The notes beneath the pieces are model-generated. The model ran no database searches. It had not been told where the DNA came from and saw only the letters and a list, made by a program, of their open reading frames with translations. From the NCBI GenBank assembly GCA_002633005.1, contig NMRA01000343.1:1-64000 (forward strand): a stretch of 64,000 nt of DNA, given 5' to 3'. The translations under genes were made by a program, and so were the position numbers. The stretch comes from Phoronis australis (taxonomy: Eukaryota; Animalia; Phoronida). This document shows, piece after piece, positions 788-60,500 of the stretch (the first letter of the stretch is position 1; each line of letters starts with the position of its first letter).

Positions 788-792
788 GACCG

Positions 793-1498
793 CACGGACG
801 TCCTCAGCTTCTGATCGTCCCCAATACACTATATATACTACAAGGTATGACACTTTGGACTAGAAATTCCACGGGTGCTTCACTTCAACCGTCCATAGCA
901 AACACAAAATTCTTTAAATTTATATAAAATGCGTTCAACAAACCATGAGGAATTGTTCTTTCTGCCAATACCATTTACAGTGTCCTGCTCCACCGAGTTC
1001 GCAACAAATTCGTGGTCAAAGCACAAAAATCTTCTCAAAAAATCGCTGCACACTAGCAATATGCTTCACGCCGTTCAGGTCAAGTAGGGTATGGAATAAT
1101 ACGATGAGTTACGAATCGACGGCAATTGCCGGTTTACCACGGAAAGTTACAAAATGGTGTGACTAAGTGGAGTTATTGATGTTGTGACCTTCCATGACAA
1201 ACATAGTTTCCATGTAGCATATGGCTGGTGTGCAGCGACTTTTTGAGAAGATTTTTATGCTTTGACCGCGAATTTGTTGAGAACTCAGTGTCCAGAGCTG
1301 GACACTGTAAATGGTATTGGGAGAAAGAACAATTCCTCATGGTTTGTTGAACCTCTGTTTTTTGAAAATTTATTGAGTTTTGTGTTTACTATGGACGGCT
1401 GAAGTGAAGCACCTGTGGAATTTCTAGTCCGGAGTGTCATACCTTGTAGTATTATTATATAGTGTACTGGGGATGATCAGAAGCTGTGGACGCCTGTG
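793..1498. mobile_element. Foldback/MITE-like element copy 2 (same family, diverged)
   Basis: 793-~1060 pairs with ~1235-1498; same termini and a homologous central spacer (ACGATGAGTTACG vs ACCGATGAATTACG) in the same orientation as copy 1. Confidence 0.8.
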
Positions 1499-3279: not shown

Positions 3280-3553
3280 ATGGCTGATAATCTGGATGTG
3301 AATGATGAGGGTGAGAAAGCCAAGTCGAGAGCCGGGAGTTCACGGGCCTCCAAGAGGGCGGGCTCAGGAAGGAAAAGCCCTGGCAGCAAATCACCCTCCC
3401 CTAAAGCTGGCTCCAGGAAAACGTCTGGAAAAGCCTCTGCTAAGGGTGGCTCGGCAAAACGGTCGAAGACGCCCAAATCTGGAAGGGATGGAAGGGAGTC
3501 CGCTTCCATTCCAGTAGAGACAGTTGCGGAAGCCCCCCAAGATCCTCTAGAAG
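3280..3553 (+). CDS. DNAH2: DNAH2 coding exon 1 (MADNLDV..QDPLE; basic low-complexity N-terminus)
   Basis: Acceptor TTCTAG at 3275, ATG 3280 in ACAATGG context, donor G/GTAAGT; phase 1. Confidence 0.7.
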
Positions 3554-9500: not shown

Positions 9501-12500
9501 CCTTCGTATTTGTTATCCTCCATACTTACTCTCTGCAGGCGACGTCATGGCATGATGACTACAACCGGTTCCGTACAGGTATGAAAGACCTGGAGGTGAT
9601 GATGCAAAACGTCATCAACTCGGCGTTTGAGACTGTGACGACGGTGGAACAAGGGGTGGAGCTGTTGGACGTTTTTATGCACCTGCAGAGTAGGGAGGTG
9701 AGTGCTGAGTCTGCTCAGTGGGCTCATGGCTCAAATAAGGAGGGGAGAGCTATGCCTGATCATTGGGCTCGTACAAATAGAGAGTAGGGTGCAGGTAATG
9801 CTTAGTGGACTCCTGGTTCGAGTAGAGGTGAGTACTGATGCTGCTCAGTGAGCTTGTAGTTCAAATAGAAAGGTGAGGACTGAGACGGCTCAGTGGGCTC
9901 ATGACTCAAGTAGAGAAGTGATTGCTGAGACTGCTCAGTGGCCTTGTAGTTCAAGAAGGAAGGTGAAGGCTGAGACTGCTCAGTAGGCATGTGTCCTCGT
10001 TTTAAACTTATTTGCAGAATTCTACAGTCTCCATGTTGATTCTGTCTTTTGTATTCATTGTAGCTCCCTGAAAAGTATAAATTGTTTGTCGTTAAAAAAA
10101 TAATGTTTGCTTAGCCAACTTGTCAATGCCTTGAAAAATCTTTGAACTTGTGGTTGGAATGCCCTTGAGAAGTCCTTGAAAATTGTAGTAACATCTGTAA
10201 ACATTGTTAGTAAGACTGTTGGCAAATTTCTGTAAAAGCTATGCCTCCATCTATAGGCCATCCGGAGAACTGTGGACAAGAAGACTGTGGAGGTGTACCA
10301 GATGATGAATGAGGAGATGAACGCTGTGAAGAAGGAACTGACCATCAAGGCATCTGCGCTGACCCCTCAGCACCCCAAGTATGCGGGCACCGGGCATTGG
10401 GCCCGCATGTTGAAGAAGAGGATTGAACGAGGCATGATGGTCAGTTGGCTTTCTCACGACACTTCATTTTGAAAATGTTTATGTCCCTTGTTGGAATAAT
10501 GTATATTACTGAGGAGAATGCAATGGCAGTGGATTTTCTAGTTAATATGAAATTGTAACCTTCATTTTGTTATCAATTCCTATCCATTTTTTGTCATTTT
10601 CAACTTGCTTTGTTGGACTAAAGGACTAGGCCCACTTTTCTGCTAGTCATTGCTTGGCAGCTTTGAAAAGTGAAAAGTGTACTAAGATAAGTGGTAAAGA
10701 CAGTTCTATAGCATCTTAAGTTTAAAAACTTGTGACTGTTACAAGAACTTGCTCTCAGCTTGGTTCTTCTAAATGGTTCAGAACTTTTCTTAATAAATCA
10801 CAAGCCATTTCAAGTTTTACTTTGTTCGAACTCGCGTTACAATCTTGAAACTTCTTTGTCTCTGATTTGAAACTTGGGCCTCATTGTCGTCGCCAGATTC
10901 TGGACCGCGCCCACTTCCTGCCCCCAGTTGGTGTGGGTGAAGAGACCAGAAGTCAGTACCAACAGCTGTGCCAGGCCCTGGACGACTACATACGCAAGAC
11001 GTTCCATGAGTGGACTATGACTGTTGACAGGGTATGTACTAAAGCCTTGTCTAAGACCCATGCATGCATGATTGAGACGCCTGGGTGCCTTATTTGAAAC
11101 TACTTACAGTTAAATTTGCCTTGTCACTTTTATAAAATCAAATATAAGACCCTGCTGAACTGCCATGATCATTACTGAAACAGAAGTTTTCAAAAGGTTG
11201 TTGAATTTCATGAGAATTCGTTTGGCTTTGTCAAATTTGTAGCAAAAAACCTTGAAGGGAATTAGATGAAATCTGAGTGCTTAATCATATAAAACTGAGG
11301 CAAAAAGTTTTGCTTTGAAATTTGTCCAATTATCGACAAGATGAGATTTTGTTAACTTTTTTGAAAACTGTACTTTGCACATCTCAAAATTCTTGTGTAG
11401 TCACAAGAATTACTTTGGTCAAGTTCTTTTTCATATTTTATTTCATGAGTTTAAGGTAAATACACTGCTGCCCAGAAAGTGAATTAACTTTTATTTCTTG
11501 GCAACAGAGTTTTAATTAAATTTTGTTGTGAAGCAGATGGCATTTCCGTTTTAGTACAGTCACGTGTTAGCCTGCTTCTCATCAATGGCAACCAGCCATG
11601 GGTAGTGTACCTTTGGTGCGTTCCGTGAGGCTAGTATCTTTGCGAGTTGGAGGAGATCACCCAAGTCTTATGGAATATCATCGTGCTTTATAGGCAAAGC
11701 TTGTGATCTAATCATTATTCACTTGCAAGTCACTAGTGTTACTGTACGCTCTTAAGTTTTGGTTCAGCAATGACTCCCCCAGTAGCGAGTTCTGTCCGAA
11801 TCACAGAATAGAACCTTATGTCGGTCAGAAGAACCATTTCTTAGACTGGTTCCTCTACTAAAAAATTTTGATTGGAATATGGTCATCTCAGATCTCAGTA
11901 GTTTGTACGAGTTTGCATAAGCTGTGATTAAGTAAATAATTTCCCAATTGACTGTGCTGTGTTGTGGCGCTTAAGCAAAGCAAATGCCGATGACGAATTT
12001 GAGAGTGTCTCATGCAGGATGTAGACTGCTTGATGTGTTATTTGATGTTAGTAGTGTTAACTATAACGTGTTCATTTTTTCATGGTTAGAATTTTAGAAC
12101 AACAGTAAGTCTCCCTCTTAAATTATCATCATTTCATTTTTTAATAGATTTTATCCTTCTTTTGTCCTGGAATTGGCAAATGTGTTATTGTTTCCTATTC
12201 TATTTTGTATTATTTACATGTGCCCTGGTGCTCATTTTTTGACTTTCGTATTCGGGACATTATGTTGACAAAACCTTGTTTTGGATCCTACATTACGGTC
12301 TCCAAAAATGCCTTTAATAAGACAAGTGCGTCAGGAATTTTGTCCCGAATTCTAAGTCTCCTGCCCATTTTTGCCTGCACATTTAACCAGAGTGTGTATT
12401 TTCCTTATGAGTGGTTTGCACTAACCCCATGATTCCTATAGGCTCTGCAGCCTCTGCAAGTGTGGAGTGTAAGTAGACTAGATAGTGTGGGCTGGTGTGT

Positions 12501-15500
12501 GGTCTTTGCTTGGCTTTTGGCTCTCCAGTAGTTAGCCAATGGTTATACGCAGTCTGATGAGTGTAGAAAATGCAGAACGTTGTGTGCGTTTTTGTTATGG
12601 ATCAGAAAAAAAATTTCAGCATTTCTGTGTGGCAGATACAGAAACTTGCAAGAGTTAGAAAAACAGAAGCCAGTGTAGTATCTTTCTGGAGTGTGCATTC
12701 CGATTTTTCTGCAAATCCGATCATGATATGAGCTATCAAATAGCCATAAATTAGGAAAATTTCAACTTCGGCAGTAGCTTTGTGGTTAAGCAGTTACGAG
12801 ATTGTATTTGGAAAATATTGTTGGAATTTTAATGCACAAGTCACCTACTCAAAACACAAGAATTATTCTTAAATCAAGTGAACATTGCAGTTTTTTTCGT
12901 GGATTTTCATGTCACGATATGTGCTTTTGTGTAGAGCTTTATATTAAATCCTTGTTTTACATTGACTCATATTTAGGCAATTAGAGTAATGTAATCTCAT
13001 TCTTGGCTTGCGGTAGATAAATTTTGTTTCCTTATTGTAGTTTTAAAGCATTTTACTGTTTACAGTATGTTCTAATCAGTACCTCACAATCTGTAGTAAC
13101 CCTTAGTTAATAAATAAGTGAATTATTAACTCATCATCATACACTGGTTTTGCTCACATATATGTTGATGAGTCAGTCTGCTTAGGGTCGAAACACTCAA
13201 TTATTAACTGACAGTGTTACTGAGCTCAAGCCAATACTTACTCTCAGTGCTGATCTATTGATGATCAACTGGACTGTTTGAACGTCTTCATCTCAATACA
13301 TAATAAACGTGTGTGTGATTAACTTGAAATTAACGCCATCTGTGTCACATTTTAACTGTCACTAGCTAGTTGTAATATTATCCACTGTAGGAACCTGCCA
13401 AGTTGCTTGAGATTCCTTTGATGTGCCGAAGTGAGGAGAGACGACCCATGTTAGACTCCAACTTTAATAAGTGAGTGGACTACTAACTACTGGGAATTAT
13501 GTGGAGTGTTTTCATACAAACCCATTCCTCTGTCATGTTTGTTGTAGTCCACTGAATACAGTCATGGGTAAACCTGTTCTTGTTAGAGGAAAATAATGAG
13601 TTCTTCAACAATTAGTAATGGTAAACAGTCCAAAGTTTCGAACAGTGATTGATGTTAAATTGGCTACTAGACCAAGGTTTTGTGGTAGACTTCGTTCCAT
13701 TGGTCATTCAGTCTAAAGACTTTAATTCATAGCTGTGAGCAAGGTTATGCAGTCACCAGACGTAGTGTTGCTAGCACTTACAGTTTGTCCTTCACTTATT
13801 AGTAGGTACAGCAACTTTTCGTAAAGACTGCTGACGCCTGGACGTCGCTGAATTAACAGCCCCATTATTTGAGCTTTGCTGTGCCAAATAATGCAACAGA
13901 ATGTGTTTACCAAGTGCGACTTTGGAGAAAGTCAAAATTAAGTTTTTGTCAATCATGTACTTTGTGGCGTTCATAGTGAATACTGTCACCATTTCAGAAC
14001 ATTGCTCAAATTGTTCCAAGAGATCCATTATTGGGAAAGACTGATGTTCGAGATTCCTCACTATGCCGCCGATGCTTATACCAAGCAAGAAGAACTGAGG
14101 TGTTCACGGGAACACGTCCTGTTGGTGGTCAGAGACTATAACAGGTGGGTTATAGGGCGTGTTGCTGTTTGTTAGGGTCTATTGATGTTGTTAGGGTCTA
14201 TTGATGGGTCAGTAAAACCAAGTGGAATTTGCTTCTTTCAGTCAGTCAAATTATTTTGTGGTGGCAACTGGTACTTAAGCAAAGATGGAAAAGGCCAAAA
14301 TAATCTATTTTGAAATAGGCAATTTTTTTAATCTGTTTTGTTAGAACCGTCATTATTTTATGACTGTACCTGCGTCATCTTATGTTGGACATGCAATGTC
14401 CTCCACTATTTCTTTTCAGAATCGTTGCCTCATGTTATGTTAGATATACGATGTCCTCCACTATAACTTTGTAGAATCATTTTGTCATGTTATGTTAGAT
14501 ATACAATGTCCTCCACTATAACTTTGTAGAATCATTGCGTCATGTTATGTTAAATATACAATGTCCTCCACTATAACTTTGTAGAATCATTGCTGCACTT
14601 TCACAAGAGGAACTGAGTCTGTTTCGGGAACGGATTAAATTCCTGGACAAGAAGATTCACCCAGGGCTCACCAAACTCACCTGGGCGTCTAAAGGCATAT
14701 CCGACTATTTCATCGTGGAGTGCCGCATGCATGCCAGCAAGGTATTATTGTGTAAAGGGCTTTAATCATATTAAGTCAATGTTTTTGGAAATTAATCTTT
14801 TGTTGCCAACTGTGTCATATTTGTATCAATGAAAAATAAAAAATAAAATATTAGGGTGGACTGAGAGCTTAAAATATGAGGTGCACCAGATTGTCACAGG
14901 CCACATGGGTGGCCCATTGTACAGACCACCATTAAGTTCTTGTAAGTATCCTCTCTTTCATCAGGTTTTTCACGAGAGAAGTTTTCAAGTCTGCAAATTT
15001 TTGCATGAAATCATTCCTTGATGTAATGTTTAGAGTGGATCAAATATTGTGTCCACTGACATGCTGCGTATGATTTATGAGGATATTTTAGGTTACTTGG
15101 TATCAATGAAGGAACATATTAATAGTAAATACGCAGATAACATTTTACAAAACTAGAAAATACAAATTGGTAAGAATAATTCATTTCTTGAGGGTTTGAA
15201 TATTAATGTTAAATATAAAATTACTGTAACCATCATAAGATAAACTGGAAAAGTGGAAAACATAATTGATAAAATAAATAAAGTTATTGATTGTTTTATT
15301 TTAGATCCAAGTGATTGTGGACGACTACAAGGGTGCCAACGTCAACATCTCGGTGTCGTGCAAGAAGATCGCGGAACTCCTCCTGGTGAGAATCGATGGC
15401 AAGAAGATCTACGAGAACCTGGAGTTTGATGACGACCAGGAGAATCACCGAGAGAATGTGAAAAAGAAATTACAGCAAACGCACCACGACATCGTGGCAA

Positions 15501-18500
15501 CAATGAGGGGAACATTTGAGGTGTTCAAACACGATGGCAATGAGGTGAGGGGGGGGGGGGGGGNTGGTGGATATGCAGATTTGTAACATCTGATAAGGTG
15601 ACGTACAGATTTTTTAGAATGCTTGGAGTGAAAAATTACTGAGAAATAATCATATTTTGTAATTATTATAAGTGCCTTTTGGGTAACAGCTGGATTTGTT
15701 GTATGAAAGGGGTCTTCAACTTTGAAAGAAAGTTCAAGACTGAATCTATTATCAAAATAACCCGATAGTAAGACGTTTTTCTGGTTTTTCTCAATGTTAG
15801 AAAATCTAAATGATGTAAAACTTTTCTGGTTTTGCAATTATTTAAAGTGAGTAGAATACTGTCTTGGAACTGAGTTTTTCGAATTTATTCTAAAATGCTT
15901 GGTATTGGTTGATGGCAATAACTATGCATTATACTTGTTGATGTTTGACAGCAATACATTCACTTAGAAGTCAAGAGTCTTTGTAGAGCTTAATAACATC
16001 CGATTGACATTAGGTTTTCAATATAACTCACGACAGTCAGTGTATGTTTCTATTGTCTAGTTATTGTTTCAAATCTTTGCTGCACAGGTCCAACAACAAT
16101 GGGTCCGCTACACAGAGAAGATGGACCGCATGGTTGAAGAAGCATTCCGTGTCAACGTTAAGAACTCTCTTCACGAGCTGTCACGTGCCATAAATGGTGA
16201 CGGCAAGTCGACACCCAATCCGCTGTTCCGAGTCAAGGTCGTTCTGGAGGGTACCAAGGTCGAGTTTTCTCCCACACTCAAACAGCTTGCTCAGAGTGTT
16301 GGCAGCATAGCGTCTCACTTGACCACCGCCATCAATGAGTTCAGACGGCTGCCTGATCTGCTGACCAGGAAGAAATCCAACAAAATGGTAAGAGTGAGAC
16401 TGAAATGTATTGTTCATATAGTTTTTGCATAGAAAATGTTCACTTGAGAATTGTGAACAAAGGTTCTTGAGAAGATTTCTCGTGGAATCAATTTATGATT
16501 ACTTTAAACTATTTTATCGTTCTTTTGTTTATGCTTTTTGGCAGATCCCTTATGAGTTATGTACATTGTCTAATTTTTATAAGACTGAGTTGACTTTTAA
16601 TTGAACAGTTGGAGTTTAATACCTCACTGTATTGTCACTTCACATCAATATCATCAGAATGGTTAATTCCAGCAAACATTCCCGAGTTGTTTACTTTGTG
16701 TGCACACCATTAGTAGTATGTATTTCTTTACTGTGTTTCATCAGTCATTGAGGTAATTGCCTGAGAAAGGAAAAGGTCAAAAGTGACTCACTTGACAGTG
16801 CTGGCAGACGTAGTAGTCTCTCATGTAATAAAATTTCATGAAACCCCCATTAAGTACACCTGTGATAATTTGTAATTATTTCGGTTTATTACAGCCAATC
16901 CACGAGCTGATTGCCAAAGATGAGGAGGTGAAGAAGATTCAGACAACTGTGAATAATGGCATGCAAGCCAACGCCAGTAACCTTCAGACGTACTTGATGA
17001 CCTGGGACAACTACCGGGAGATCTGGGAGATACACAAGGACTCGTTTATACGACGCTACAAGAAGGTCAACCCGGCAGTCACCTCGTTTGATGCCGACAT
17101 CTCGAGGTATTGCACTTGAGAAAGGATTCTTGCACTGAGACGTTTTGGAATTGGATTGTATATGAACTAAATGTAGGCAACTGTGGTCAGGATTTAGGAT
17201 TTCTGAGATCTAAATATCTTATTTCTTCATGACTGCTTAATTCGAATTCTTTCCTTCACTTTGAATTATTATTTATGCATGTTGTGTCACAATTTCAAAA
17301 TATGTTGGGCTTTGTTCTTTGTGGGCATGTAGATCAAATGATGAAAATCCGGTCTTAGCTAGGAGGGTCATACCTTTGATTTAAATTTACGCAAAGTTCA
17401 ATAACATGGCTCGTGAAGACAGTCATTAAGTTTACTTTACATCAGTTATAATGGTTTCTCCCTTAAGAGACGCAGTGTTGCCTTTGCAACAACATGCCTG
17501 TGACCATCTTAGCTGCGACGAGACGTCTGACCTTTGATATAATGGACAACAACTTTTATCTCTCATTGCCTATCAATAGTCTGACCTCATGTTGTTTTAC
17601 TTCATTTTAAAAGATTAATATTTTTAATGTTTTTATCTAACTTTGGTGTACATTAATTTTCTTTGTCGCCCAGATACACCGAGGTCGCCAACAACGTGCA
17701 AACCCAGGAGACGATACTCAACATCCAATTCGTCCTACTTGACTGCTCACCGCTCAAGTACGCCATCTTGAGTCACTGCCAGGAGTGGCAGAACAAGTTC
17801 TCCACCCTCCTCAGTGAAATGGCCATCAGTGGACTGAAGGAGCTCAATGAATTCTTGAACACTAACGCCACCAAGTGAGAGTTTAATTTGATGGTTTTCT
17901 TTTGAACTTCCCTGTGCTGATTTTGATATTGAAACGTCATGAGAATTAACTAAAAAAAATTTTTTTTTTGGTTCTTGATGTGTTGCAATTCTCAAAGATG
18001 CATCTTAATTCAATAGTTTTCATTGCCCAGCTAACTGCGTATTTGTGTTTTAAATTACTAGATTTTGCTATTTCTTGTTTTATTCCAAATTCCTTGCTCG
18101 AGGGGTGGAAATGTGCTATGGAATTGCGATGTGCAAGATAAGTTTTAGATAATCTTATTTTTACCTGAGCTGAATTTATGTAACTGTAAACCCCAACTTA
18201 CTATTTGGGAAATAATATAATATACTGTTATTGCATTTCTTGCCCTGCTGTTGAAATGTAATATATTGACCAATTTTAAAGCTCAGCACACTCTTTCTGA
18301 CACGTGGTGTTTGTTGCATATTTCACATGCCCAAAGTAAACCACCAGCCATGTTCCCTTGCAGTGTCAGTCGTCCCCCACAGACCTTAGATGAGCTGGGT
18401 GAGAGCCTGACACTTTGGGAGACTCTGAACACAGACCTGCCCAAGACTGAAGAGAAGTTTGCTCCTCTTTACGACCAGTTCAACATCCTAGAGAAATATG

Positions 18501-21500
18501 AAGTGGCCATACCTGAGGATGTGAGTGATCATTGTTCAGAAATTTCAAGTATGCCACTGTGTGGGCTACAATGCTTAAGAATATGTAGGACCCTTGAAAA
18601 AGGTCCAAATTTGGCTAATGTAGGAACTCAGTGTCTCAGAAATGGCTGATCAGATAAAAATGAAACTTTTATGTACTGTGCTTTATGCACTATTCTCCAA
18701 AATTCTGTTAGGAATTGTTTTAAAATCTTCCAGTTGCAAAAAATGAAAACGGAATTGTATTTTAGAAAACTGTCAGTGTCTTTGAGGTCTCATCTTGGAA
18801 ATTTATATCAAATGAAATTTGATCATGTTATTGATAGCATTGCTCTGCTATCAATGTACCTTTCTTTTTTGCTAAATTTTATTAAAAAGACATATTAGTC
18901 ACATGACTCAATTACTGGCAAATGAGGAAAAAGTCAAACATCAAATTCTATAGGATTTCTTCTTTCATAAAATACATACTTTAGCGGGATTAAAATCTAT
19001 AGATTTTTAGATATTGGCAAAATACACAGACTGGTTAATAAGGTCTTACATAACCTTGATATTATATTTGTCATATATGGAAAGTTTTCTGATCATTGAT
19101 CTTTGTTTCATTGCTTTACACTAGATGTCTCTTGTGTCCTTTCTGTTGTTGTTTTAGAATCTTGTTACTATTAAGTGGATCGCTTCTTGTTCTTTTATCA
19201 CCAAAAATATCTAGTGGACAAATGGTCATTTTATTTTATTTTAATTTACATTAATTGAAGTAGTTTCTGAATTATGCTGTGGGGAAAGGAATACTTTCAA
19301 ATATGGTGATTTGAAAGTAAAGCACACCATTGGCGTCATCTTGGTTTTTGTTGAATAAATCTGAAATTGTGTTTACTTCCTGAAAATGCACATTTTTGTA
19401 CCCATTTCCCAGACAGTGCATTTATCCATTATTTTTATTAACTTTTTTCTTCATAGTAACTGGTTATTGCTGGACGGTGACTGCATTTGTCATGTGACCT
19501 GCATCGAAATGGAAGCCATGAAATGTTTGCTAAGATCATAATTTACCTATCTATACCATTTCCATTAACCTGAAATGACTGTGGTTAAGTTCTGTCAGAG
19601 AAATTGAAATGTCCGTTCTCTAGGTGATGGTGATGCTGAACGAACTCAATGGTGTTTGGGAGAGCTTCAAGCAGACCCTAGTCGACTCTGACTTGATGCT
19701 TAAAAAACACAAGGAGAAGTTCAAGACCAGTTTGCTGGCTCAGTCTGAGGAGTTTAAGAAACAAGTCAACCAGCTGGTGACAGACTTCCACAAGAACGGG
19801 CCATTTGCCGCCTCCATCAGCACGGCAGATGCTCTGGAGCACATTGCCAAAGTCCAGGAAAACGTGGCTAGTCTGAAGGCCCAGGAGGCGACGCTTCGTC
19901 GAGGACTGGGTATTTTCAAGATTGACCAGCCACCGTCGAAAGAGATTGCTGTTCTGGACAAAGTAAGTAGTCTCATAACATCTAAATTTGAATTTTTACT
20001 GTCAAAGATAAAATCAGTTACATTGGTCAAAAAAGGGCATCGCTATATTTGATGACATCTGTGTATGTTGGTAGCAAACATTCTGACTTTTGCTGATTCT
20101 GACTTCTTTCAGAGTCCTCGCATAAGCTTGGAATAACACACACTCTTGTGTTGGTACACTGAGAAAGCTAAAATCTGCAGAAGCCATAGTGTTCTGATCT
20201 ATTAGCACCTGCAGTGTACTATATTGGGAGCGACTGTTATTTGTGAGGGCTGAAGGAGTAGTCAACGTCCTGGGGTTTATCATATCATAGGGTGGCCACT
20301 GTGGCTAAACAAGGCTGTTGTGTATTTGATTTTTACTGGCACATAGCCCATAAACGTTGTTTTATGAAGATTGTTGTTAAGTTCACGTACATAGCCCAGC
20401 CAGAATGTGCGTCACTTGCAATGCTTTGCTCTTGACTTATGAAGGTGCTGCATAAGGTTCACCTACGGCCATCTTATCAGTGACTAGGCATTACTAAGCC
20501 CGACCTTAGGTGTTATTAAGTACCAGACTTCAGCTTTGCAAGCTTGGTTCTGCCAGAAAGTGAATCGTACACAGCCAGATTTTGAGGATGTTAGGGGACC
20601 AAGCCCCCTTTCAAACACGGCACGTACCTATTTTTAGGGGTGTCGTAAATGCTTGCGGCTCAGAAATTGCTGTTGAGCCCTTGTTGCGGCATCCTGTGGT
20701 GACAGTACCTGAGAGATAATGATAATGATATTGGCAGGACCTGGAAATGATTGAGACTGTGTGGTCCATCACCAAGGAGTGGGAAGAAAACTGGGATAAT
20801 TGGAAGTGTGGCAAGTTCCTTGATCTACAGACGACAGACATGGAGAATGTAGCTGTTGGACTCTCCAAGAGACTCAACAAACTGAGCCGAGAGCTCAAGG
20901 TGAGTCGATGTTTATCGTATCTTTTAGCAAACCCCTGAAAGTCAATTCCACGTACATCCACTTACTGTTAAGGTTCAGGTCATTTAGTACAATTTTTGTA
21001 CTGTTTGACTAGGATTTTAAAACATGAGTTTTCCAAATAGGTGTCTAAGGCTCAAAATTCTGAGCTCTGATGTCTTTGACTGGGGTCTCTGGTTTTGATC
21101 CTGTTCATAGTTTTGATCAGGTTCTGAATGATATCGACTACTTATGGTACATTGCTTGTCATGGACGTCTATTACCATGAATATTGTTTGTGGATAAATC
21201 TAGCATAGGAAGACTTACATTAAGAAATTTAATGCAAAAAGGCATGATTGTGTATGATGTAATTAATTGTTTGCATTATGTCTGACTGTCTTTTTTGAAA
21301 TTCGTGTAATAATTTATGACTGTGTATTTTTGCTGTCCATTCTTACATTGACCTACTTTGTGCCCCGTGCAGATGAGACAGGAGGAACAGAAAACTAAGG
21401 GTCAAGTATGTACTCGCACTGCCCCCTGGTGTCACGTGTGCCAACCTGCCATTCCATTTGTGAAACAATTATTATTTTGAGTGACTGACATGCACATTAT

Positions 21501-48500: not shown

Positions 48501-51500
48501 TATGAAGTAGTCTTCTGGGTTAATTATTTTTGTTGAGGTAATTGGCCTTTTTATGTTAACTTTTGTAATGTACTGTACAGTGTCACATGCTCTGTTTTCA
48601 TTGGTGGGTTTCGTTCTGCTGTGGATGTCTTCCAATAGAATGTGAAAAATCTGTCTATCGTCAAAAAATTCAATTAAATCATTCTACTTTTCTGCAGCAG
48701 TGAACTAAATTTATGAAATTTTACTGTTCATTAGTTATTGGTTTCTGGACTAAACCACAGGAATTGAAAGGAAATTAAAAATTATAAGACAGATTTTTGA
48801 TTGACTGACTTCGAGTTAAAATCAAGTCATTTTGGCCTTGTTTCGCCACCTCATTATATCTGTTAGTAGTAAATGACAATGTGGGATATCTCGTGCAGGC
48901 TGTGTCACAGAAGAGTGAGAAGATTGGTGAAGAGGAGGTGAAGTGTAAGGCCATGGCAGAACTGGCACAGGCTGATCTGAATGAGGCGCTGCCAGCACTA
49001 GAGGAGGCCATGAAGGTGGGTGTGTGGGGCATGGGGGGGGGAGTGAACGGGGTCTGTGGGCCTGGCAGTGTTTGTGAGGTTTGACAGGAGACTTGCAGGT
49101 CTTGGGCATTGTTACGTCTGACATACAACTGTTTAGTGTTGTGACACCTTGAAAGAGCATTTTGCATGACACAATTCAAATTCAGTATGGACTGAGTTGA
49201 CAAAGATGAAATGGAATTTCTTTCATTGACTGGCATATAGCTATGAACGTTTTTTGTGGTTTGTTTGAATATCCCACTGTACAACAAATGAATGGTAATT
49301 TGACGTCATGATGATATAAAAAATGTGAAATTCCATCACCTATTAAGTGTTCATCCAAATCACAGGTGTGATCAAGGTGGTGTTGAACATTATCCTTCAA
49401 GCACTTGGTCACCGCTAAACGATAAAGCTAAATTATGACATTATCTCGCAGCTATAATGGACAACATTCTTGAAGGCTGATTCTGATTTGCTAAGTAATT
49501 CAATCACTCTTGTTATCAATGGTTGTGGAATTGGTAGATTACTAATTTCAACCAGTGGACAATGGGAATAGCCAAAATTGTAACTTAGTGTTTAGAACAC
49601 TACGTTGCCATAAATATAGTGTTTTGCGTTCTACCCATAAGGCCTTGGAGTCCCTGAACAAGAAAGATATGACTGAGATCAAGAGTTACGCCAAACCCCC
49701 AGCCTTGGTCGAGAAGGTGATGGAGGCAGTCATGATCCTGAGAGGGAGTGAGCCAAACTGGGCAGAAGCAAAGAGACAACTGGGTAAGACTGATGATTGA
49801 GTTGGGGTTTAGTGTAATTAGCCTTGTGGAGGAGTGTGATTCACAAGACAGTGTGATTCACAAGACAGTGCGATTCAGAAATTTGGCAGTAGCTACTGAC
49901 AGAGGGTCCGACAACGTGTTGCTCTCTGATGAGTATGTTGAATATAACTATTTCCAAATCTTGTTTTGCTTACCTGTCTGTGTTTTCTGGCTCTCAATCT
50001 AAGTGGCTGAAAATATAAAATGCTGAGTATATTTTATTTTTTGTCATTTATATTGTCAATTTGCTTGTAGCTTTTCATTGAAAATTTGGCTTCAAATTAT
50101 AGATCAGCTTCACTCGTTCACACAGGCAAGCTCAACTTTGCATACTTGAGTAGAATATAAAATTAACAAGGTTCTGAGTAACTTTATAAAGATGTCAACT
50201 TTTCACCAAACCACATCCTCAAAACGCGTCTTGTTGCATGAGTCCCTTTAACTGTTTTTATGTCTTCACAAGTACATGTCTGTAATTCTTGGAAACGTGA
50301 TTTGCAGGTGATCAGAACTTCATCAAGCAGCTTGTGAACTTCGACAAAGACAACATCAGTGACAGGGTCCTGAAAAAGATTGGACAATACTGCTCGCAGG
50401 CCGACTTCCAACCAGAGATCATCGGTCGCGTGTCGGCTGCTGCTAAGTCGCTGTGCATGTGGGTCCGCGCAATGGAAGTGTACGGCAGGATATATCGTGT
50501 GGTTGAGCCCAAGAAGCAGCGACTGAACGCTGCCACAATACAGCTGAAGGAGAAACAGGACGCTCTGGCGGACGCAAAGGCAAAATTGGCTGAGGTACAA
50601 CCCCATTTTGGTTGATGTGAATTTATATCAGGTTGATGATAAATTATCATTCATAGCAATTGTTAAGTATGAATTCTAATCCACCATTCACATCATACTG
50701 TACCATGAGTTAATAGTCGGGAATATTTTTTATGTGATACATTAAAACATATCGTGTCATTACATTGTCTTAGTAGCAAAAATTAAATTATCTCCAGAAT
50801 AGTTGTGGTTGTAGGACCTGCCTACTTTTGTCATTTGAAAGTTTGTTTTGTCAATTAGAAATCGTTGCATTGTTGAAAAAATTGAAATTTTGTTAAAACT
50901 TGTAAAACCATTTTCTAGTTTCCATTCAGAGCTCATCATAAATGGTTAAAACAAGAATTCTACAACTTTAATTTATCGAACTAAATTCAAATCAGGTATT
51001 TATCAGTTGTCCTAATTTGATTGACAGGTGGAGGCAAAAATGAATCAGCTGAAGCAGGAGTATGATGACAAACTGGCCCAAAAGGAGGAGCTACGGCGCA
51101 AGGCGGAGCAGACGGAGCTGATGTTGGATCGGGCAGCCAAGCTGGTGTCCGGATTGGCCGGGGAGAAGATACGATGGGAAGCTACTGTGGAGGTATGAGG
51201 GCAATACTCTGTTTTTGTTTCAGATTAGTGTCTGGGACCTGTTTAACTAGTAGACAGAGCCTAATGCCAAAACTTAGAGGGTTTTTAATCTAATAGTCTC
51301 TTTGTAGAAAAATGTCATAATGTTACGAAATTTTCGTGAAACTGGACCATGCTTTCTTCAGCATAAGTTGTCTAAAATGACAATTTAATAAATTGTGTCA
51401 TTCAATTCATGTGATAAATGTTCTGGACAATAGTTATAAGGACAAATCTGTAAACTGGGTGTTACTTCTGGCATCCAGTACTGAACCTCTATAAGGCTTG

Positions 51501-54500
51501 AGGCCATGTTATTGATCTAACTCAAGTGTGCACTTATGTTCTCTAGGAATTGGAGGAGAAGATGGGGTATCTTGTGGGTGACTGTATGGTGGCTGCTGGG
51601 TTCTTGTCCTACATGGGACCATTCTTGTCTGAGTACAGGGACCAGCTGGTGCAGAAATGGATTGGAGAGGTAGGCTGGAAAGAAAAGCATTATTCTGTTC
51701 TTGTGTAATGTAGCTGATGGAACAGTATTCAAACATTGATTTTGTTGTCCAGATGTTAGAATTTTTGCATTCGTTTTTCGAATGTTTTTAGATTGTGTGA
51801 TCAGATATTGCAGTCACAGTAATTGTATTACATTCAAATCATCTGTTTTGTGACACTGTCAACATGGATGTTCTATAAAAAGTAGGTTATCTTGCTCGCA
51901 GCCAGAATGCAATCTCTTTTTGATTAACCAAACTTTGAATCCAATTTAGTAGCTCACAGTGCACTTTGAACTGTTGATCACATTTGAGATATTGAGTGAT
52001 TTGCTATTGATGTGTACCATTTGACATTACATTCACTGAATTTTAGTAGGTACACCCNCAAATTTTAATTCTGTGCTTTCATTCCAGTTGCGTAATCTGT
52101 CCGTGCCTGCTACACCATCGTTCAACTTTTGCGAGTTCATGGTCAAGCCTACACAAGTGCGTGACTGGAACCTGCAGGGTCTACCTAGCGATGGCTTCTC
52201 CACAGAGAATGGTGTCATTGTCACCAGGGGGAGTCGTTGGCCTCTTATGGTTGACCCCCAGGGCCAGGCCATCAAATGGATCAAGAACATGGAAATGGCA
52301 AACGTACGTCCTGTATCATTTAGACAACCTATGATTTGTATGGAATCCTTTGCCTTTTGCTAACCAGTGTGTATTCTATTAAATCATGTTTCAAACAATA
52401 TTATCTGAAAGTTTAGTGTGAAACATTGCACTTAAATTCTGTACCAAGCTATGGATCATGTGACATCACACAAGGTGGTGAAAAATGGCTGTTTATAAAA
52501 ACATAGTTTTCGAAAAGTTGTTGATTTCCAATGGAATTTGCCTCACTATGTCGAAGTGATGACACAACCGCAGATGTAAGTCAAGAGGAAAAACACTTAT
52601 AATTAGGAAATTAAACTGCAAATGGTTAATTTAAAAGCAGGATGAACCGAATAGACATTTAATGGTAGCCCTTGCACCATGTCTGATTAAACAACAGCTC
52701 ATAATCCATCTACCTCCTCGTACAGGGCCTGAAGGTGATAGATCTTCAGCAGCATGACTTCATGCGTACTCTGGAGACAGCAATCCAGTACGGTATGCCT
52801 GTCTTGCTACAAAACGTTCAAGAGAAACTGGACCCCTCGCTGGATCCCATACTGACTAAAGCCATCAAGAAGATGGGTGGGTATTACCTCACGTTTTGCA
52901 GATTTATAGACAAGTGTTAAAATTCGCTTAATTTGGTCATAGTGAGCACCTAACCAGTAGCCAGTGTAAGAACGTAGAGCTCTTCAGTGTAGTGAGAGCA
53001 CAAAACCAAGTTCTTTTTTATGCAAATAACTTTGTCAGTTTTTGATTGACGAGAGAGTTCAGTTGACAAAGATGAAAGATAGTAAATTCTTGTTCCATTT
53101 GGTATTTTGCGTTTGTTGGCTTTTTTGCATGGAACATTCTACAGCACAGCACGCTTTGTAGCCTGACATCTTGATGACTGCACAGAGTTAAATAAATAAG
53201 GTATTGATATGTCTTTTAATCAATTAAAAGAGAATTCTTGTAAGCAATTGCCAATTTTTTCCGATACTAGGTGAGAGTTTGTTAATTTTTTCATCAGCTA
53301 TTTATTGGTTCTTGTATGTTCCACCAGGTGGTGCCTGGATGATCCGTCTGGGCGACAAGGAGGTGGAGTATAACTTTGACTTCCGTTTCTACATCACAAC
53401 CAAACTGAGCAACCCCCACTACCCCCCGGAGATCTCGACCAAGACCACCATCACGAACTTTGCGGTCAAGGAGCAAGGTATGGGCAGGTCCACCACAAGG
53501 TCCACCAGCCTTTTGTGTGGTAGTGGCTTATCTAGATTTTGGTGCAAATGCCTTTGTGTGAAAACTTCTTAATTGAAAATGCAGATCATGCGTTTTAGGG
53601 CATTCGGTATCTCTATTACTTGCAGTTATTGAACCCTCACTTTTAATTAAAATTTGTGTCATTCTTTGTCGTCGGACTGATTTTTATTTAAAACTTTTAT
53701 CCTTGCTATGATTCATGGGAGGTCATTGTAGTTGAAAAGACTTTAAAGTTGGAGTGTATATTTAGCAATAATATGTAATTTGTGCTGATTTTTTCTAAAA
53801 TTATTTTTTCATCTGTAGATCATTGATTTTGTTCTGTAGTGTTTATGATACGACTATCACTTTAACTTTTGCCCATTTTCTCTCTTTCATGTTTGTTAAA
53901 CAGCATATCAATCTTGGTTACTACATTTAACTCTTGCTATAATTGTTCTTTTGAAATGTCTTCAACTTCATTCAGTTCTGTCAGTACACGTTTTAATTTG
54001 ATCTTTAGTCTCTAACAGCGAGTTTCAAGGCCGATGCTGTGGTAATTATAAATTATACTAATAAGACATTTTCATGCATGTATTATGCGTCCTACTTGCT
54101 TCTTTACAAAGTGTTAACAGCACTTAAAAAGGTGGGGATAGGGCTTTCCTGAAGTCAGTTCTGCTTTTCATAATTGCTTGCTTGCTGACTTTATATGTTA
54201 CGCATTTCAAGCTTGTCAGATAATTGTCATGTAACTCAACGTTCATTGCTGCTTGAATGTTAACACTCACAGACAATATATGAATATGAAAGTCTTAAAC
54301 CGGTGTGGACACATAGATCGCAAAAATTTTTAAGTCACGTGATTTCTGTGATGTGGCCTACAGGTGGCATGCAGGCCATCTGCCAAGAAGTAGAAGTGAC
54401 AATTTTTGCAATTGTTCTTAATATGCAAAATAATTGAGGAAATTACAATCTGCTTCATTTCGCTATTGAAATGTTGCGACTATTACCTTGTTGGGACATC

Positions 54501-57500
54501 CCATTTCACACTATGTGGAGGGCCAATTGTTTTTCTTTAACTTAGCAATGTGTTACAAAAATCCAAATCATGAAATAAGACAATTCGATACTTCTTGGTT
54601 TCTATACTGTTGTCAAAACTGAGCTGATAGATAGTATTTTGTGTTTAAAGTTTCACCCTTATTTCATCTTACTTTGAACTTGGCAATTTTGACATGCCAA
54701 TGCAGTACTTGATACAGCTGTAGGTGTTTCTGTTTTACTACACATTTCAATCTGTGTAAGTGGCTGCAGATTCAGGTCTGAAGGCACACAACACTTCTGT
54801 AAGACAACACACCATTTCAAACTGTAACTGACTGGTATGTATTCAGGTCTGCAAGGCACACAACACTTCTGTATGACAACACATCATTTCAAACTGTAAC
54901 TGACTGGTATGTATTCAGGTCTGGAGGCCCAACTGCTAGGTATCGTGGTGCGTAAAGAGAGACCAGAGTTGGAGGAGCAGAAAGACACACTGGTGTTGAA
55001 TATAGCGGAGGGCAAGAAGAAACTGGTGGAACTGGAGGATAAGATCTTGAAGTGAGTCTAGTGACCCTCTGTCTGCACTTTGTAGTTGAAGTGAATCATT
55101 TTGAGACTACACTAGGCAAAGTTAGTAGCAGTCTGGGCTCTTCTCCTGGGGTCTGTTACGAAAAGTGACTTAAGACTGTTCGAAGTGTTGGAAGAACTAA
55201 TTCTGGATCAAGTTTATAATTATTATATTAATTGCAAACGCTTTTATAACTTTATTGTTAACAGTTTAAGTTTTCTTGCAAATAGCTAGACAGGAAAGTA
55301 CAATGTCTTGATTTAACGGTATTGAACATAAATCCCATACTTTCCTCGCAGACTGCTGAACGAGGCCCAGGGGTCATTACTTGATGACGAACAGTTGGTC
55401 AACACGCTGCAGACGTCCAAGACAACCTCCCAGGAGGTGTCCGAATCACTGCAGGTGGCGGAACAGACTGAGATTAAGATTGACGCTGCCCGAGAGGTAG
55501 GTTTGTTGCTGAGAATTAAATAGTTGGAGTTTCCTGCTCACTAGGTGGCACCAGTGAAATAATGGTTCTGTGATTGGATCTGAAAAATGTATGCATTCAT
55601 GTAGTCACGCGGAACACTTAGCTCATGGATGCCAGCCTGCACACAAGAAAACAACTTTTACTTTGTGTTTTCACTCCATTCACAGAATATGGAGTGTTGA
55701 TTTTTATTTGCACCTCATCAGAGAATCTCAAATTTATTCTGGACGTCTTGTCCTGTCATCTTGTAAAGTCTGTGCCATTTTTCTCAGTATCAAAAAGTTT
55801 ACTATATATTTCTTAGTCATTTCTTTGTGAAGCTGGACTTGAGGCTATTTGAAAGCCAAACCTTGCCAGGGCTATTTGAAAGCCAACCCCTGGGATATTT
55901 GAAAGGTAACCCTTGGGCTATTTGAAAGGTAACCCTTGGGCTATTTGAAAGCTAACCCTTTGGCTATTTGAAAGCTAACCCTTGGGCTATTTGAAATCCA
56001 ATTATCATTGTCTAGACAGGAATTTAGTGGCTCTGTTGATGTCCTGACATGACAAGGTATTAGTTTTCAAAAGCTATCTGTACAAAAATTTATTACATGA
56101 ATAAATAAATATTCTCAGACATCTGCTTCATTCATTTGGTCGTTAACTCTTTTATTCTTACATCTCACAGGGCTATCGTCCATGCGCCCAGAGAGCCTCC
56201 ATTTTGTTTTTCGTACTGAATGACATGGGTCGTATTGATCCTATGTATCAGTTCTCTTTGGACTCGTACATCGAGCTGTTCAACCTGTCCATTGATAAGA
56301 GTCAGCGAAGTTCGAAGACGGAGGAGAGAATACCAAACATTAACGATTACCACACCTACGCTGTGTACAGGTATGTCAAACTGCGATAAATAAACATTTT
56401 GTGTTGTAACAGCCAACCAAAACATAGTGTCGGTGTAAGGCAAAGTCCAAGTCATTTGATTGGAAGGGAACTATTCAAACTAGAATGTACAACGAGTTTT
56501 GCTGTATGTAATGATAATTCTCACTGTATGGCTTAGATACAATTATTTATACGTTTAATTTTCTTATGCTCATAGGCCCTTTAAACAATTTGAAGGTAGC
56601 ACATTTCAATTTTAGGAGAGGTTGCAAACGTGTTGGAGTGATAACATTGCTTGGACAAAATCAGTTTAAGGGCTGAAAAACCAGTTTTGTGGTATTGTTG
56701 CATGACTTTTACCAGAGCTTTAAAACAACAGAATTTGTCATGTTTTTGTGATTTTATTACAAATCGCCAATTTTAGACGTTGTTGGCTGGACATTTCCTG
56801 AAATCTAGGTCGGTGATTTCTTCAATTAAAATGTGCTTAAATGGTCTACTGTAAAAATTACAGAGTGGAGTTTAAATCTACTTACAAAGCGTTGGATTGC
56901 AACTGTTGAGGTTGTGAGCTCAAATTTGTATTGAGACTGATCTTAAAGAAACACTTTTCTTGGCAGTCATGTTACTTTAACAGAGTAATTAGTGTGTCGT
57001 TAAGAGTTTTATTTCAAAAAGTCATGCATTTGCTGTCATGGCGATGAGAAAGCTTTGGTTACTAAGTTTGTTAATTATTTTATTGCATTTTTTGTTTAAT
57101 AGTCCTGTATCTAGACAACATCATAGAATTCCACCATAACCATGTCGCTTTAAATTAAACACCAGGAAATGTTTCATCTACATTGAATTGCCTTGAAAGT
57201 TGTCAACACTTATGTTGTTTATTTTGTAGTGCTGATTTTAAGTTGCCACATTCTTAGAAATGAAATGATTGTGGCTTTCTGAAATCCTGCATTGGAATCA
57301 GATTGCACGATTAAGATTGACCCCATGAACTCTGACCTATAGGTACACGTGCCGAGGCCTGTTTGAGAAGCACAAGCTGTTGTTCTCCTTCCAAATGTGT
57401 GCCAAGATCCTGCAGGCAGCCGGAAAGCTCAATATGGATGAGTACAACTTCTTCCTCAGGGGTGGAATTGTAAGTAGGGTGAAGCACTGTTGGTGGATAT

Positions 57501-60500
57501 TGCACAGCTGTTGCTGGTAGTTTTGTTTTTCAGCGCATTTAGTAAAACCTCGAAAAATGATTTTAAGGTCCCATGATATCATTTTATACAATAATTTTAT
57601 GATCAACAATGTTGTGCTCTTGCGGAAGCAAACTTTTTTAATGTCCCATTATCTCAAGTTTCTGGCTGACCCACGAACTGAAACTACCCTCATGTTAAAT
57701 GGTTGCAAATCTCTTAACCTGCTGATGAGTACTTGATTTAATTTTGAAAATTTCAACAGGGAATTTTTAGGTCGAATCCTACTGACTATGATCCTGAGGA
57801 GATGTCTGAGGATGTAAGAATTATTGTGTCCACTGAAATACGTGTGGCTAGCATTGGTCACTCAGTGATTGTTGTTGGTTTTAGACTAGTTATTATTATT
57901 TTATCATTAATTACAGGGAATACTCCCCAGTCAAAATACAGTCTAGTGTTAGGTGTTAGGTAGTCAGGCACCTGAGTTTCATTGTGCATCTGTATTCTAC
58001 ACACAGTTTAGAACTGAAGGTTCACACATTCTGGTCAGCACTGTATACCACGTTAGTCTAGTTGGTTCAATGCCTCATACAAATGCCTAAGAACTCCGTG
58101 CAATGTCATTTCAGAGGTCAAATTCTAACTCTGCAGTGGAGTATTTGATAATGAAAATATTTGATAAACTCTATTTAATTCATTGAACAAACTGTTTTAA
58201 AATTTGTGGAGATAACTTGCCTTTACTAAAAAGACAAGAAGACAATAGTGACTTACAGTGGTCCCTGATTTCGAGAACCAGTTTGATGCACATTTTTCAG
58301 TGGAGAAAACTGTCTGGTTCTTAGAATGCAGGACCCATGCAAGTGACTATTGTGCAAAAAAGGGTTCCACCTGATAACAAACTGGTGTCACTTTACCAAA
58401 GTACGCTGAAATACTGCTTTTTCTTAATCAGTAAGGAATGTTCTTTCACATACAACTCACAAGCGTAGTTAGTAGGCTACACATTGTTATTCTGGTCACA
58501 GACACCAAAAATAACAAAAAAGGATGTGACGTGAGGCTTTAAGTTTAGTCAAATTTTCCAGCTTTAAAAAAGTGTTTTGGCCTCAAATGTTGCCTCAAAT
58601 GCAAACAGTGAACTTCGCTTTGCTCATTGCATAGTCATGTAAGCTATGAAAAAAATCTGTTGTAGTTCAGTTGCAGGTGGCACTGTACTTGACTTTAAAG
58701 CTCACCTGTAGAATACAAATATAAGCAATTTTAAGTAGTTGGACGTCTTCACTGTTGGTGTGGATCTAAGGCACGTATTTATTTAAAGACAATTTCAGGT
58801 TAAATAATTTATAGCTTGATAGATGGCTACACAATAGTCATTCTAACTTGAGTCAATCTTCCCTGTTTGGTAAACAGTACAAAGAAATATATGACATTTA
58901 GTTACAAGTCAGAGCAGAGTAAATGGTGTGAAGTACTTGACGTGAAGACATGACTCATGTGTTGCTGGTTCCAGGTGCTAGATAGAGACAACCAGATGGA
59001 CAACCCGTGTCCTGCATGGCTGAGCGATGACTCGTGGGATAATGTCACCGAGTTGGAAAAACTCGCCAACTTCCACGGCATACAGACCGCCTTTGAGCAG
59101 TACCCCCGGGACTGGCATGTCTGGTATACATCGTCTGAGCCAGAGACCACGTCTCTGCCAGGTAGGTATTGTTGGCGTGTAGTGGGTGATGAAGTTGTTA
59201 TCTAATATTGTGGGTGGTTTTTGACATGATTGTCTTTCTTTTTATTGTGGACTTACTGATCTGCTAAAGAAGTTACATGTTTTATATCCCTTTTGGAAGG
59301 GAATAATTGCTTCATTGTTTTACTTGTTTTGTATTTTGTTGATCATGCCACAGATTTGGTTACTTTAATTTGGTCCTTTTATATTTTTGTGAGTCAGTTT
59401 GAATTGTCCATTAAATTTGTAGGCAGTTATAATGATTTTATTCTGTACTTTTATAAGCAAGAAAAATGACTTAGATATGTTGGCTAATGTCTTTCATATA
59501 TATTGCAAATAAGTTTTTGCCAATTAAGGTATTCTGAAACTTTTCAAAATAATTCCATAAATTATGTGCAGAATCAATCTTCTTAATACTTAAAGTTAGG
59601 TGGCCCAGTTTCGATCATGTCTGCCACTAGATAAGTGTACATCATTGTCAGTATTTCTTAGTCACGGGTCTTGTCCGTCTTTCTCAGGTGAATGGGACAA
59701 CGCCTGTAATGAGCTGCAGAGAATGTTGATCCTGCGCTCCCTTCGACCTGATCGTGTCTCATTCTGTGCCACGTCATTCATCATCAACAACCTGGGGTCA
59801 AAGTTTGTTGAGCCTCCGGTCCTTGACATGAACCAAGTAGTGGAGGACTCCACCACAAGAACGCCACTTATCTTTGTCTTGTCACCGGGCGTAGTAAGTT
59901 TTCTTGCCTTTTATTCAATTTTGTATAAACACTCCCTAAGTTGATTTGACTGAAAAATTGTCTTTGATTGTTGTACAGTTTCTAGGGTGCATTCCATAAT
60001 ACATTACTTGCAAGATACAAGCCATGAGATATCTTGGCTTATGCGGTGAATGTGGTAGGCATTTTGGATCTTTGCATTAGAATTTTCTCCATTTCAACAC
60101 TTCAAGTAAGAATCCTATCACCTATGCTCAGTGGTGGTCACTTTGCTGGTGTTTGGCTGCATTAAGGTTGGCCGCTACTTTGCAAGACACTATCTTGATG
60201 CTTTGCCTGACAGAAAAATAATTTTGCGCGATTTTGTCAAATTCTTAGGACATTTTAGTTTTAATGAAATCGACAAAGATTTTTCTTGAAATTAGACTGG
60301 TGGCTATTTTATTTTGTGTATTCTTGCCTACAGGACCCCACCAGCGGATTACTGACCCTGGCTGAGAGCCGTAACATGGCACACAGGTTCCACGCTTTGT
60401 CCCTGGGGCAGGGCCAGGCCCCCATTGCCACAAGAATGATCAAAGAGGGAGTACGAGAGGTCAGTAGAGTCCTTAGAGGCTCGACAATGAGAAGTTATTT

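What the first reader, a model, noticed from the sequence alone, without database searches (positions are those of the whole stretch)
12090..57813. Hidden programme of frame-preserving micro/cassette exons in the longest introns of an axonemal dynein
Seen: most introns here are 150-900 bp, but five of the six longest (introns 11, 21, 37, 59, 63) each hold a short AG...GT-bounded segment whose length is a multiple of 3 (15, 27, 33, 30, 33, 54 nt), whose phase matches the flanking exons, and which is stop-free in that frame. None of the peptides is in vertebrate DNAH2 as I recall it, and the flanking exons join fine without them. Two have regulator-like motifs directly downstream (TGCT cluster; TGCATG). 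Knowledge: regulated microexons tend to sit in longer introns and are controlled by SRRM3/4-eMIC, RBFOX, MBNL; they are well described for neural trafficking/cytoskeletal genes, but I know of no such set in an inner-arm dynein. Inference: tissue-specific (sperm vs ciliated epithelium vs sensory cilia) DNAH2 isoforms tuned by small loop insertions. Caveat: I found them by eye and AT-rich introns yield chance pseudo-exons.
Basis: partly seen in the sequence, partly recalled or inferred. Interest (0 to 1): 0.8.

Follow-up and report, generated by a model that had tools for sequence, protein, structure and literature searches.

The report
Small extra exons in ciliary dynein
One of six proposed mini-exons in this invertebrate's ciliary motor gene is spliced into RNA, likely into most transcripts of two samples, and would add 11 amino acids at a nearly invariant joint of the motor; four others were skipped in the RNA tested and one was not tested, so a tissue-specific programme remains only a possibility.

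Summary
The gene is a lophotrochozoan DNAH2 (inner-arm I1-beta dynein), 71 exons in the window. All six AG..GT segments exist, are in frame and stop-free, but the bare pattern is common (42 real hits against 33.7 +/- 6.8 in shuffles). RNA decides: the 33-nt segment at 54009-54041 is a real exon (60 and 75 junction reads in two runs, roughly 80% inclusion). It puts 11 residues just before the AAA5 helix leading into the buttress, where 314 of 315 orthologues have no insert, and has TGCATG 34 nt downstream. The segments in introns 11 and 21 showed only skipping; at intron 63 skipping matches the neighbouring flux; intron 37 was not tested. The intron-21 segment still has the best exon signature in the gene. 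Annotated isoforms of molluscs, a nemertean and ctenophores carry different short optional inserts at the same junctions 11, 21 and 37 (P about 0.013-0.019). Tissue specificity, coordination and regulators are untested. Intron 37 and 49 lengths are inflated by probable assembly duplications. Closest known case: the retinal microexon of dynein-2. No earlier finding of this scan on a dynein microexon was listed.

The parts
3280..63754 (+). DNAH2 (inner-arm dynein I1-beta heavy chain) gene, 71 coding exons in the window, 3' end beyond it
   Evidence: Spliced model 4310 aa with no stop; best PDB hits DNAH2 and I1-beta; 79% identical to Lineus DNAH2; many junctions read in RNA
54009..54041 (+). Confirmed 33-nt in-frame exon in intron 59 (phase 1), adds [11 protein letters not shown] between KEQ and GLEAQ in AAA5
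   Evidence: Joints 53477>54009: 44 (X1) and 16 (X2) reads; 54041>54919: 50 and 25 reads; estimated inclusion about 0.8, lower bound 0.62
54075..54080 (+). TGCATG (RBFOX-type motif) 34 nt downstream of the confirmed exon
   Evidence: the motif lies within 150 nt downstream of 5 of 69 constitutive exons; binding untested
21373..21405 (+). Candidate 33-nt exon in intron 21 ([11 protein letters not shown]); best exon signature, not included in the RNA tested
   Evidence: Rank 1 of 1264 in-frame stop-free pairs; combined score 21.3 above the best of all 40 shuffles (max 20.8); AG-free zone 129 nt, longer than all 70 constitutive acceptors; only skip reads, 12 and 10
33622..33651 (+). Candidate 30-nt exon in intron 37 ([10 protein letters not shown]); second copy at 34339-34368 from a probable assembly duplication; not tested with RNA
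   Evidence: Rank 3 of 1264 by combined score, weak acceptor; 7 YGCY downstream, reached by 0.3% of 948 intron windows; no difference between the two copies over 33559-33749 (P about 0.03)
12442..12468 (+). Candidate 27-nt exon in intron 11 (ALQPLQVWS); not included in the RNA tested
   Evidence: Rank 4 of 1264 by combined score; only skip reads, 25 and 9; unspliced sense reads peak in its bin
12090..12104 (+). Candidate 15-nt segment in intron 11 (NFRTT); weakest, probably a pseudo-exon
   Evidence: Rank 92 of 1264, codon score negative, GC 0.20; no junction and no letters between exons 11 and 12
57760..57813 (+). Candidate 54-nt exon in intron 63 ([18 protein letters not shown]); skipped in most transcripts tested
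   Evidence: Skip joint 28, 18 and 1 reads, equal to the preceding joint's flux; inclusion joints not among the 15 of 31 shown; rank 16 of 1264

Best explanation
This DNAH2 gene has one real 33-nt in-frame exon in intron 59, read in RNA and likely regulated rather than constitutive, and likely one to three further cell-type-restricted cassette exons (introns 21, 37, perhaps 11) that the sampled RNA skips or did not cover. Shown: the exon is spliced to exons 59 and 60. Estimated: it is in about four of five transcripts of two runs. Inferred: its weak splice sites are helped by a downstream TGCATG enhancer bound by an RBFOX protein; the 11 residues lengthen the link between the large and small AAA5 subdomains just ahead of the buttress helix and so shift how the ring's nucleotide state reaches the stalk, tuning the I1 motor. 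Inferred: the intron-21 segment is included only in a minority cell type, such as ciliated neurons, through an eMIC-like route. The long introns are long in part because they house such exons. The exons are lineage-specific gains at recurrent permissive junctions, not a conserved set.
For: Inclusion joints of 44+16 and 50+25 reads with GT..AG ends, sense strand. Inclusion estimate 0.83 from joint-to-depth ratios, lower bound 0.62. No insert at this site in 314 of 315 orthologues or in 35 of 35 contiguous metagenome loci, which argues for an optional form. Acceptor at the 10th and donor at the 21st percentile of this gene's sites with TGCATG at +34, the pattern described for RBFOX-enhanced micro-exons (PMC4317164, passages). 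Intron-21 segment beats all 40 shuffles and has the longest AG-free zone, a feature of fly eMIC exons (PMC8797185, passages). Introns 11 and 21 hold about 1x sense-strand unspliced depth against 0.02 in four control intron bins.
Against: No skip junction for the confirmed exon was among the joints shown, so it is not shown to be alternative. No inclusion of the intron-11 and intron-21 segments at 3 or more reads, with all 13 joints shown. The bare pattern is at chance level. Other species' inserts share no visible sequence with the window's peptides, come from automatic annotation, and some could be shifted donors or acceptors. TGCATG follows 5 of 69 ordinary exons and TGC precedes 31 of 69. 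Unspliced reads may only reflect intron length or GC content. The structure model is weak at the site (pLDDT under 50).
Confidence: 0.55

Rival explanations
1. The intron-59 exon is a lineage-specific, effectively constitutive small exon, and the other five segments are chance pseudo-exons picked from long AT-rich introns.
For: Inclusion reads match or exceed the neighbouring constitutive joints and no skip joint was shown. Four of the five tested candidates show skipping only. 42 similar segments against 33.7 expected. Best splice-site score alone is reached in 15% of shuffles.
Against: A fixed 11-residue insert would be unique among 315 orthologues. The intron-21 segment beats all shuffles on the combined score and has an exceptional AG-free zone. 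Same-junction inserts in other phyla. The joint-to-depth ratio at exon 60 (0.63 against 0.76) leaves room for some skipping.
Confidence: 0.28
2. All six segments are a coordinated, tissue-specific programme under one regulator.
For: All lie in five of the six longest introns after correction; four rank in the top 16 of 1264 by combined score; one is confirmed.
Against: In the same two runs one exon is mostly included and four are skipped, so they are not co-regulated there. Their motifs differ. The 15-nt segment scores poorly (rank 92).
Confidence: 0.1
3. Inclusion of the intron-59 exon makes a crippled or switched-off motor, so the splice acts as a brake and the working protein comes from the skipped minority or from another tissue.
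For: The site is nearly invariant in length across orthologues and other dyneins and directly precedes the helix that runs into the buttress.
Against: The included form appears to be the major one where the gene is well expressed; the frame is kept, with no stop, which a discard route would not need.
Confidence: 0.07

Closest known systems
Human DYNC2H1 retinal microexon 64 (PMC7708302, passages read; PMC9303857, passages read)
   Same: Short in-frame exon in a dynein heavy chain, inserted in the AAA5 module.
   Different: That one is 21 nt (7 aa), in cytoplasmic dynein-2, shown retina-predominant and tested with SRRM3/4. Here 33 nt (11 aa), axonemal I1-beta, invertebrate, tissue pattern unknown. 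Whether the two positions in AAA5 coincide was not mapped.
RBFOX-enhanced alternatively spliced micro-exons, 51 nt or less (PMC4317164, passages read)
   Same: Length 3n, weak splice sites, TGCATG in the downstream intron, longer flanking intron.
   Different: Described in mammalian brain with CLIP and conservation data; here skipping, binding and flank conservation are not shown.
eMIC-dependent neural exons of Drosophila and vertebrates (PMC8797185, passages read)
   Same: The intron-21 candidate has a long AG exclusion zone, TGC near the acceptor and a branch-point-like motif.
   Different: Its splice sites are strong rather than weak, it is 33 nt, and inclusion was not observed.
Automatically annotated DNAH2 isoforms of Mizuhopecten, Haliotis, Littorina, Lineus, Mnemiopsis and Bolinopsis
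   Same: Optional 2-12 residue inserts at the junctions matching introns 11, 21 and 37.
   Different: Different peptides; none at junction 59 or 63 in an isoform pair; database models, with no description found in my paper searches.

Membership tests
DNAH2 / I1-beta orthologue | Best match and tree placement with DNAH2 | tested here: met
   Top PDB hits DNAH2 and I1-beta; groups inside lophotrochozoan DNAH2 at 100 SH-aLRT in a quick tree of 24 DNAH2 rows (careful search unfinished, no paralogues in the tree)
Exon (intron-59 segment) | Spliced at both ends in RNA | tested here: met
   44+16 and 50+25 junction reads, GT..AG
Alternative cassette exon (intron-59 segment) | Both inclusion and skipping observed | tested here: inconclusive
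   Skip joint not among 15 of 31 joints shown; ratio estimate leaves about 17%
Alternative cassette exon (segments in introns 11 and 21) | Inclusion junctions in RNA | tested here: not met
   Only skip joints, all 13 joints shown, threshold 3 reads, three runs of unstated tissue
Alternative cassette exon (intron-63 segment) | Inclusion junctions in RNA | tested here: inconclusive
   Skip 28/18/1; inclusion not among joints shown, 16 hidden
Alternative cassette exon (intron-37 segment) | Inclusion junctions in RNA | not tested
   Outside both read layouts
Microexon, strict (27 nt or less) | Length | tested here: not met
   The confirmed exon is 33 nt; only the two unconfirmed intron-11 segments qualify. 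It meets the 51-nt definition of PMC4317164
RBFOX-enhanced micro-exon | Downstream TGCATG and weak splice sites | tested here: met
   TGCATG at +34; acceptor 10th, donor 21st percentile
RBFOX-enhanced micro-exon | Conserved intronic flanks | tested here: inconclusive
   No similar sequence in 9 orthologous introns from distant animals; no close relative available
RBFOX-enhanced micro-exon | Dependence on RBFOX binding | not testable with these tools
   Needs knock-down or minigene
eMIC-dependent neural exon (intron-21 segment) | Long AG exclusion zone and UGC near the acceptor | tested here: met
   129 nt against a maximum of 84 in 70 constitutive acceptors; TGC at -12; TGC alone is common (31 of 69)
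eMIC-dependent neural exon (intron-59 exon) | Long AG exclusion zone and UGC near the acceptor | tested here: not met
   22 nt, no TGC within 30 nt
eMIC-dependent neural exon | Neural-specific inclusion and eMIC dependence | not testable with these tools
   Tissue of the runs not given

The most novel reading that the evidence does not exclude
The inner-arm I1-beta dynein is tuned cell type by cell type through small exons that different animal phyla have gained independently at the same few junctions, and this lineage has added one at the AAA5 hinge that re-gears the buttress-stalk coupling in its main ciliated tissues.
Probability: 0.2. Interest if true: 0.75.

Novelty: new member of a known kind. 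Interest (0 to 1): 0.5.

Why it matters
Axonemal dyneins are usually diversified by swapping paralogues (own knowledge), not by small splice inserts. A major isoform with 11 extra residues at a nearly invariant AAA5 joint is a natural experiment on how the ring signals to the microtubule-binding stalk, and repeated optional inserts at the same junctions from ctenophores to molluscs point to places where the I1 motor can be tuned. It also shows that homology-based annotation would miss the commonest form of this transcript in the two samples.

Tried and rejected
No whole genome is held for the window, so no genome-wide background or splicing-factor search. The run search listed no indexed RNA holder; the raw-read runs came by species label. 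Run X3 has too few DNAH2 reads and X4 none on exons, so neither informs. Splice-site score alone does not pick the real exon: it ranks 139 of 8147 pairs and 33 of 1264 on the combined score. A scan for 3- and 6-nt exons like the molluscan two-residue inserts gave 320 candidates, none convincing in intron 11, and no inserted letters in reads. The first full-length homologue search returned only fishes. Metagenome loci: 9 orthologous introns at the same position, no related exon. The AAA5 model was globally poor (pTM 0.42, rmsd about 18 to solved chains); only the order of helices was used. The spliced isoform itself was not folded. Intron 49 as a long intron was rejected: one copy is 476 nt once the duplication is removed. 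Rejected: that the second copy of the intron-37 segment is a tandem exon pair; it lies in a 718-nt, 98% duplicate abutting an N. Paper searches without a description of axonemal dynein microexons: (open-licence library only); PMC8352595 passages held nothing relevant. Look-ups of earlier findings gave no dynein note.
Full report
Gene and organism. The window holds most of a DNAH2 gene on the + strand. A model of 71 exons (3280-63754) translates to 4310 residues with no stop. Exon peptides hit mammalian DNAH2 and Chlamydomonas I1-beta best. The closest named proteins are nemertean (79.2% and 78.4%) and abalone (77.3%), and a quick tree of 24 rows places it among lophotrochozoans outside molluscs (careful search unfinished).

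The observation. The six segments are real sequence features: 12090-12104, 12442-12468, 21373-21405, 33622-33651, 54009-54041 and 57760-57813, each AG..GT bounded, 3n, in phase and stop-free. Two duplications abut single Ns: 33213-33930 against 33932-34646 (98.2%) and 43515-45300 against 45777-47529 (94.9%). I read them as assembly artefacts (inference). They double the intron-37 segment and inflate introns 37 and 49.

Chance. There are 8147 AG..GT pairs of 9-60 nt in the introns, 1397 in frame and stop-free, 1264 with duplicate copies masked. A filter imitating selection by eye gives 42 hits in 25 of 70 introns, against 33.7 +/- 6.8 in 40 dinucleotide shuffles; in the five chosen introns 16 against 8.1, but these were chosen after the fact and include nested hits. 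On splice-site plus codon score the candidates rank 1 (intron 21), 3 (intron 37), 4 (27-nt, intron 11), 16 (intron 63), 33 (intron 59) and 92 (15-nt). Only the first exceeds the best score of every shuffle (21.3 against 20.8); on splice sites alone 15% of shuffles reach it.

RNA. Three stranded raw-read runs with the same species label were laid, about a fifth of each read; tissues are not given. On 39300-59299 (15 of 31 joints shown) the intron-59 segment is spliced at both ends: 44 and 16 reads upstream, 50 and 25 downstream in X1 and X2, as many as or more than the neighbouring joints (34 and 18; 19 and 21). The skip joint is not shown. If it is no stronger than the weakest joint shown, inclusion is at least 0.62; the ratio of joint reads to local depth (0.63 against 0.76 at four constitutive joints) gives about 0.83. 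Both are rough. For intron 63 the skip joint has 28, 18 and 1 reads, matching the preceding joint (19, 21, 3); inclusion joints may or may not be among the 16 hidden. On 10880-22440 (all 13 joints shown) introns 11 and 21 have skip joints only (25 and 9; 12 and 10), no letters between exons, so inclusion is under 3 reads per joint. Sense-strand unspliced depth averages 0.97 and 1.21 in intron 11 and 1.11 and 0.25 in intron 21, against 0.02 in four control bins, and the bin holding the intron-59 exon has more depth than 33 nt explains. This fits slow splicing at these introns but also length or GC bias. Intron 37 was not covered.

Other animals. Among 339 retained orthologue sequences, an insert of 2-25 residues is seen at junction 59 in 1 of 315 and at junction 63 in 1 of 309, both single models that look like annotation noise. 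In 80 metagenome loci, 55 held both flanking exons: 35 contiguous with no insert, 20 with a gap, of which 9 close orthologues have an intron at the same position and phase with no related exon. The intron is old and the exon is lineage-specific. By contrast, 21 groups of isoforms from one species or genus show optional inserts exactly on 9 of the window's 70 junctions (5, 7, 11, 16, 21, 25, 37, 49, 69), including junction 11 (Mizuhopecten 12 and 2 residues, Haliotis NH, Littorina SH and VF, Mnemiopsis 4 residues), 21 (two ctenophores, 5 residues) and 37 (Lineus, 7 residues). Inserts that begin with Val or end in Lys, Gln or Glu could be shifted splice sites; NH, SH, IS and the 12-mer could not, if the intron phase is kept (inference). 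These are automatic models and I could not see their DNA. The peptides are unlike the window's.

Where the insert falls. The confirmed exon adds [11 protein letters not shown] after the residue matching human DNAH2 Q3512, inside the Pfam AAA_9 (AAA5) domain. In a model of the Lineus region the site lies immediately before helix 159-171, which is followed by two long helices; the site itself has pLDDT under 50 and the whole model fits solved chains badly. The buttress is the elongated H5-H6 pair of the small AAA5 subdomain, with a sharp bend in H5, and is thought to pass ring changes to the stalk (PMC4047620, passages). I infer that the insert lengthens the link into H5. The other sites map to the tail (intron 11), the start of DHC_N2 (21), just before the AAA2 lid profile (37) and a predicted loop after AAA5 (63).

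Regulation. The confirmed exon has weak sites, flanking introns of 531 and 877 nt, a competing acceptor 10 nt inside that scores the same but is not the one seen in reads, and TGCATG at +34. That is the pattern of RBFOX-enhanced micro-exons (PMC4317164, passages), but 5 of 69 ordinary exons here have the motif too. The intron-21 candidate has a 129-nt AG-free zone, longer than all 70 constitutive acceptors, as in eMIC exons (PMC8797185, passages). The intron-37 candidate has a rare YGCY cluster and no difference between its two copies across 191 nt (P about 0.03). No regulator is tested.

What is known. The nearest case is the 21-nt retinal microexon in AAA5 of DYNC2H1 (PMC7708302, passages; PMC9303857, passages). 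Searches for an axonemal equivalent listed nothing that describes one; supplied background, seen as listings except for the papers named. The library lacks most subscription papers and I opened no supplements, where exon lists could include DNAH genes. The scan's earlier notes gave one unrelated octopus clathrin microexon and nothing near this place; it did not affect my reading.

Verdict. One real small exon, probably regulated, at an unusual site; one strong and two moderate unconfirmed candidates; one probable pseudo-exon; no coordinated programme shown. New member of a known kind, interest 0.5.

Noticed in passing
window 33213-34646 and 43515-47529: Two direct duplications (98.2% and 94.9%) each split by a single N; the second repeats part of exon 47 and exons 48-49, and RNA depth favours the second copy. 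Probably haplotype artefacts of the assembly.
   Followed up: partly
window 24118-24338, 14371-14593, 54770-54928: Tandem repeats (37 nt x6, 55 nt x4, 72 nt x2.2) that copy a donor site (exon 24) or acceptor sites (exons 14 and 60); in the reads the last acceptor copy is used at exons 14 and 60.
   Followed up: partly
window 23384-23520: Degenerate copies of the end of exon 23 inside intron 23 (84% over 57 nt), which score as coding-like pseudo-exons.
   Followed up: no
window 156-1498: Nested inverted and direct repeats of 500-600 nt (73-83% alike) upstream of the gene, like decayed palindromic elements.
   Followed up: no
window 53974-54640, 12424-13195, 21302-22073: Sense-strand unspliced reads concentrate beside or downstream of the candidate exons, well above control introns; could be detained introns.
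   Followed up: partly
window about 18580-18960, 45300-45775, 58270-58312: Intronic repeats with high read depth on both strands in all three runs; multicopy elements transcribed elsewhere.
   Followed up: no
database proteins P0395-P0410, P0414, P0290, P0399, P0303, P0524: Further optional inserts in other animals at junctions 5, 7, 16, 25, 49 and 69, for which the window has no proposed candidate; junction 49 recurs in several bivalves.
   Followed up: partly
window 3983-5297: Intron 2 is the one long intron with no candidate under the by-eye filter; homologues vary in length at this junction.
   Followed up: no
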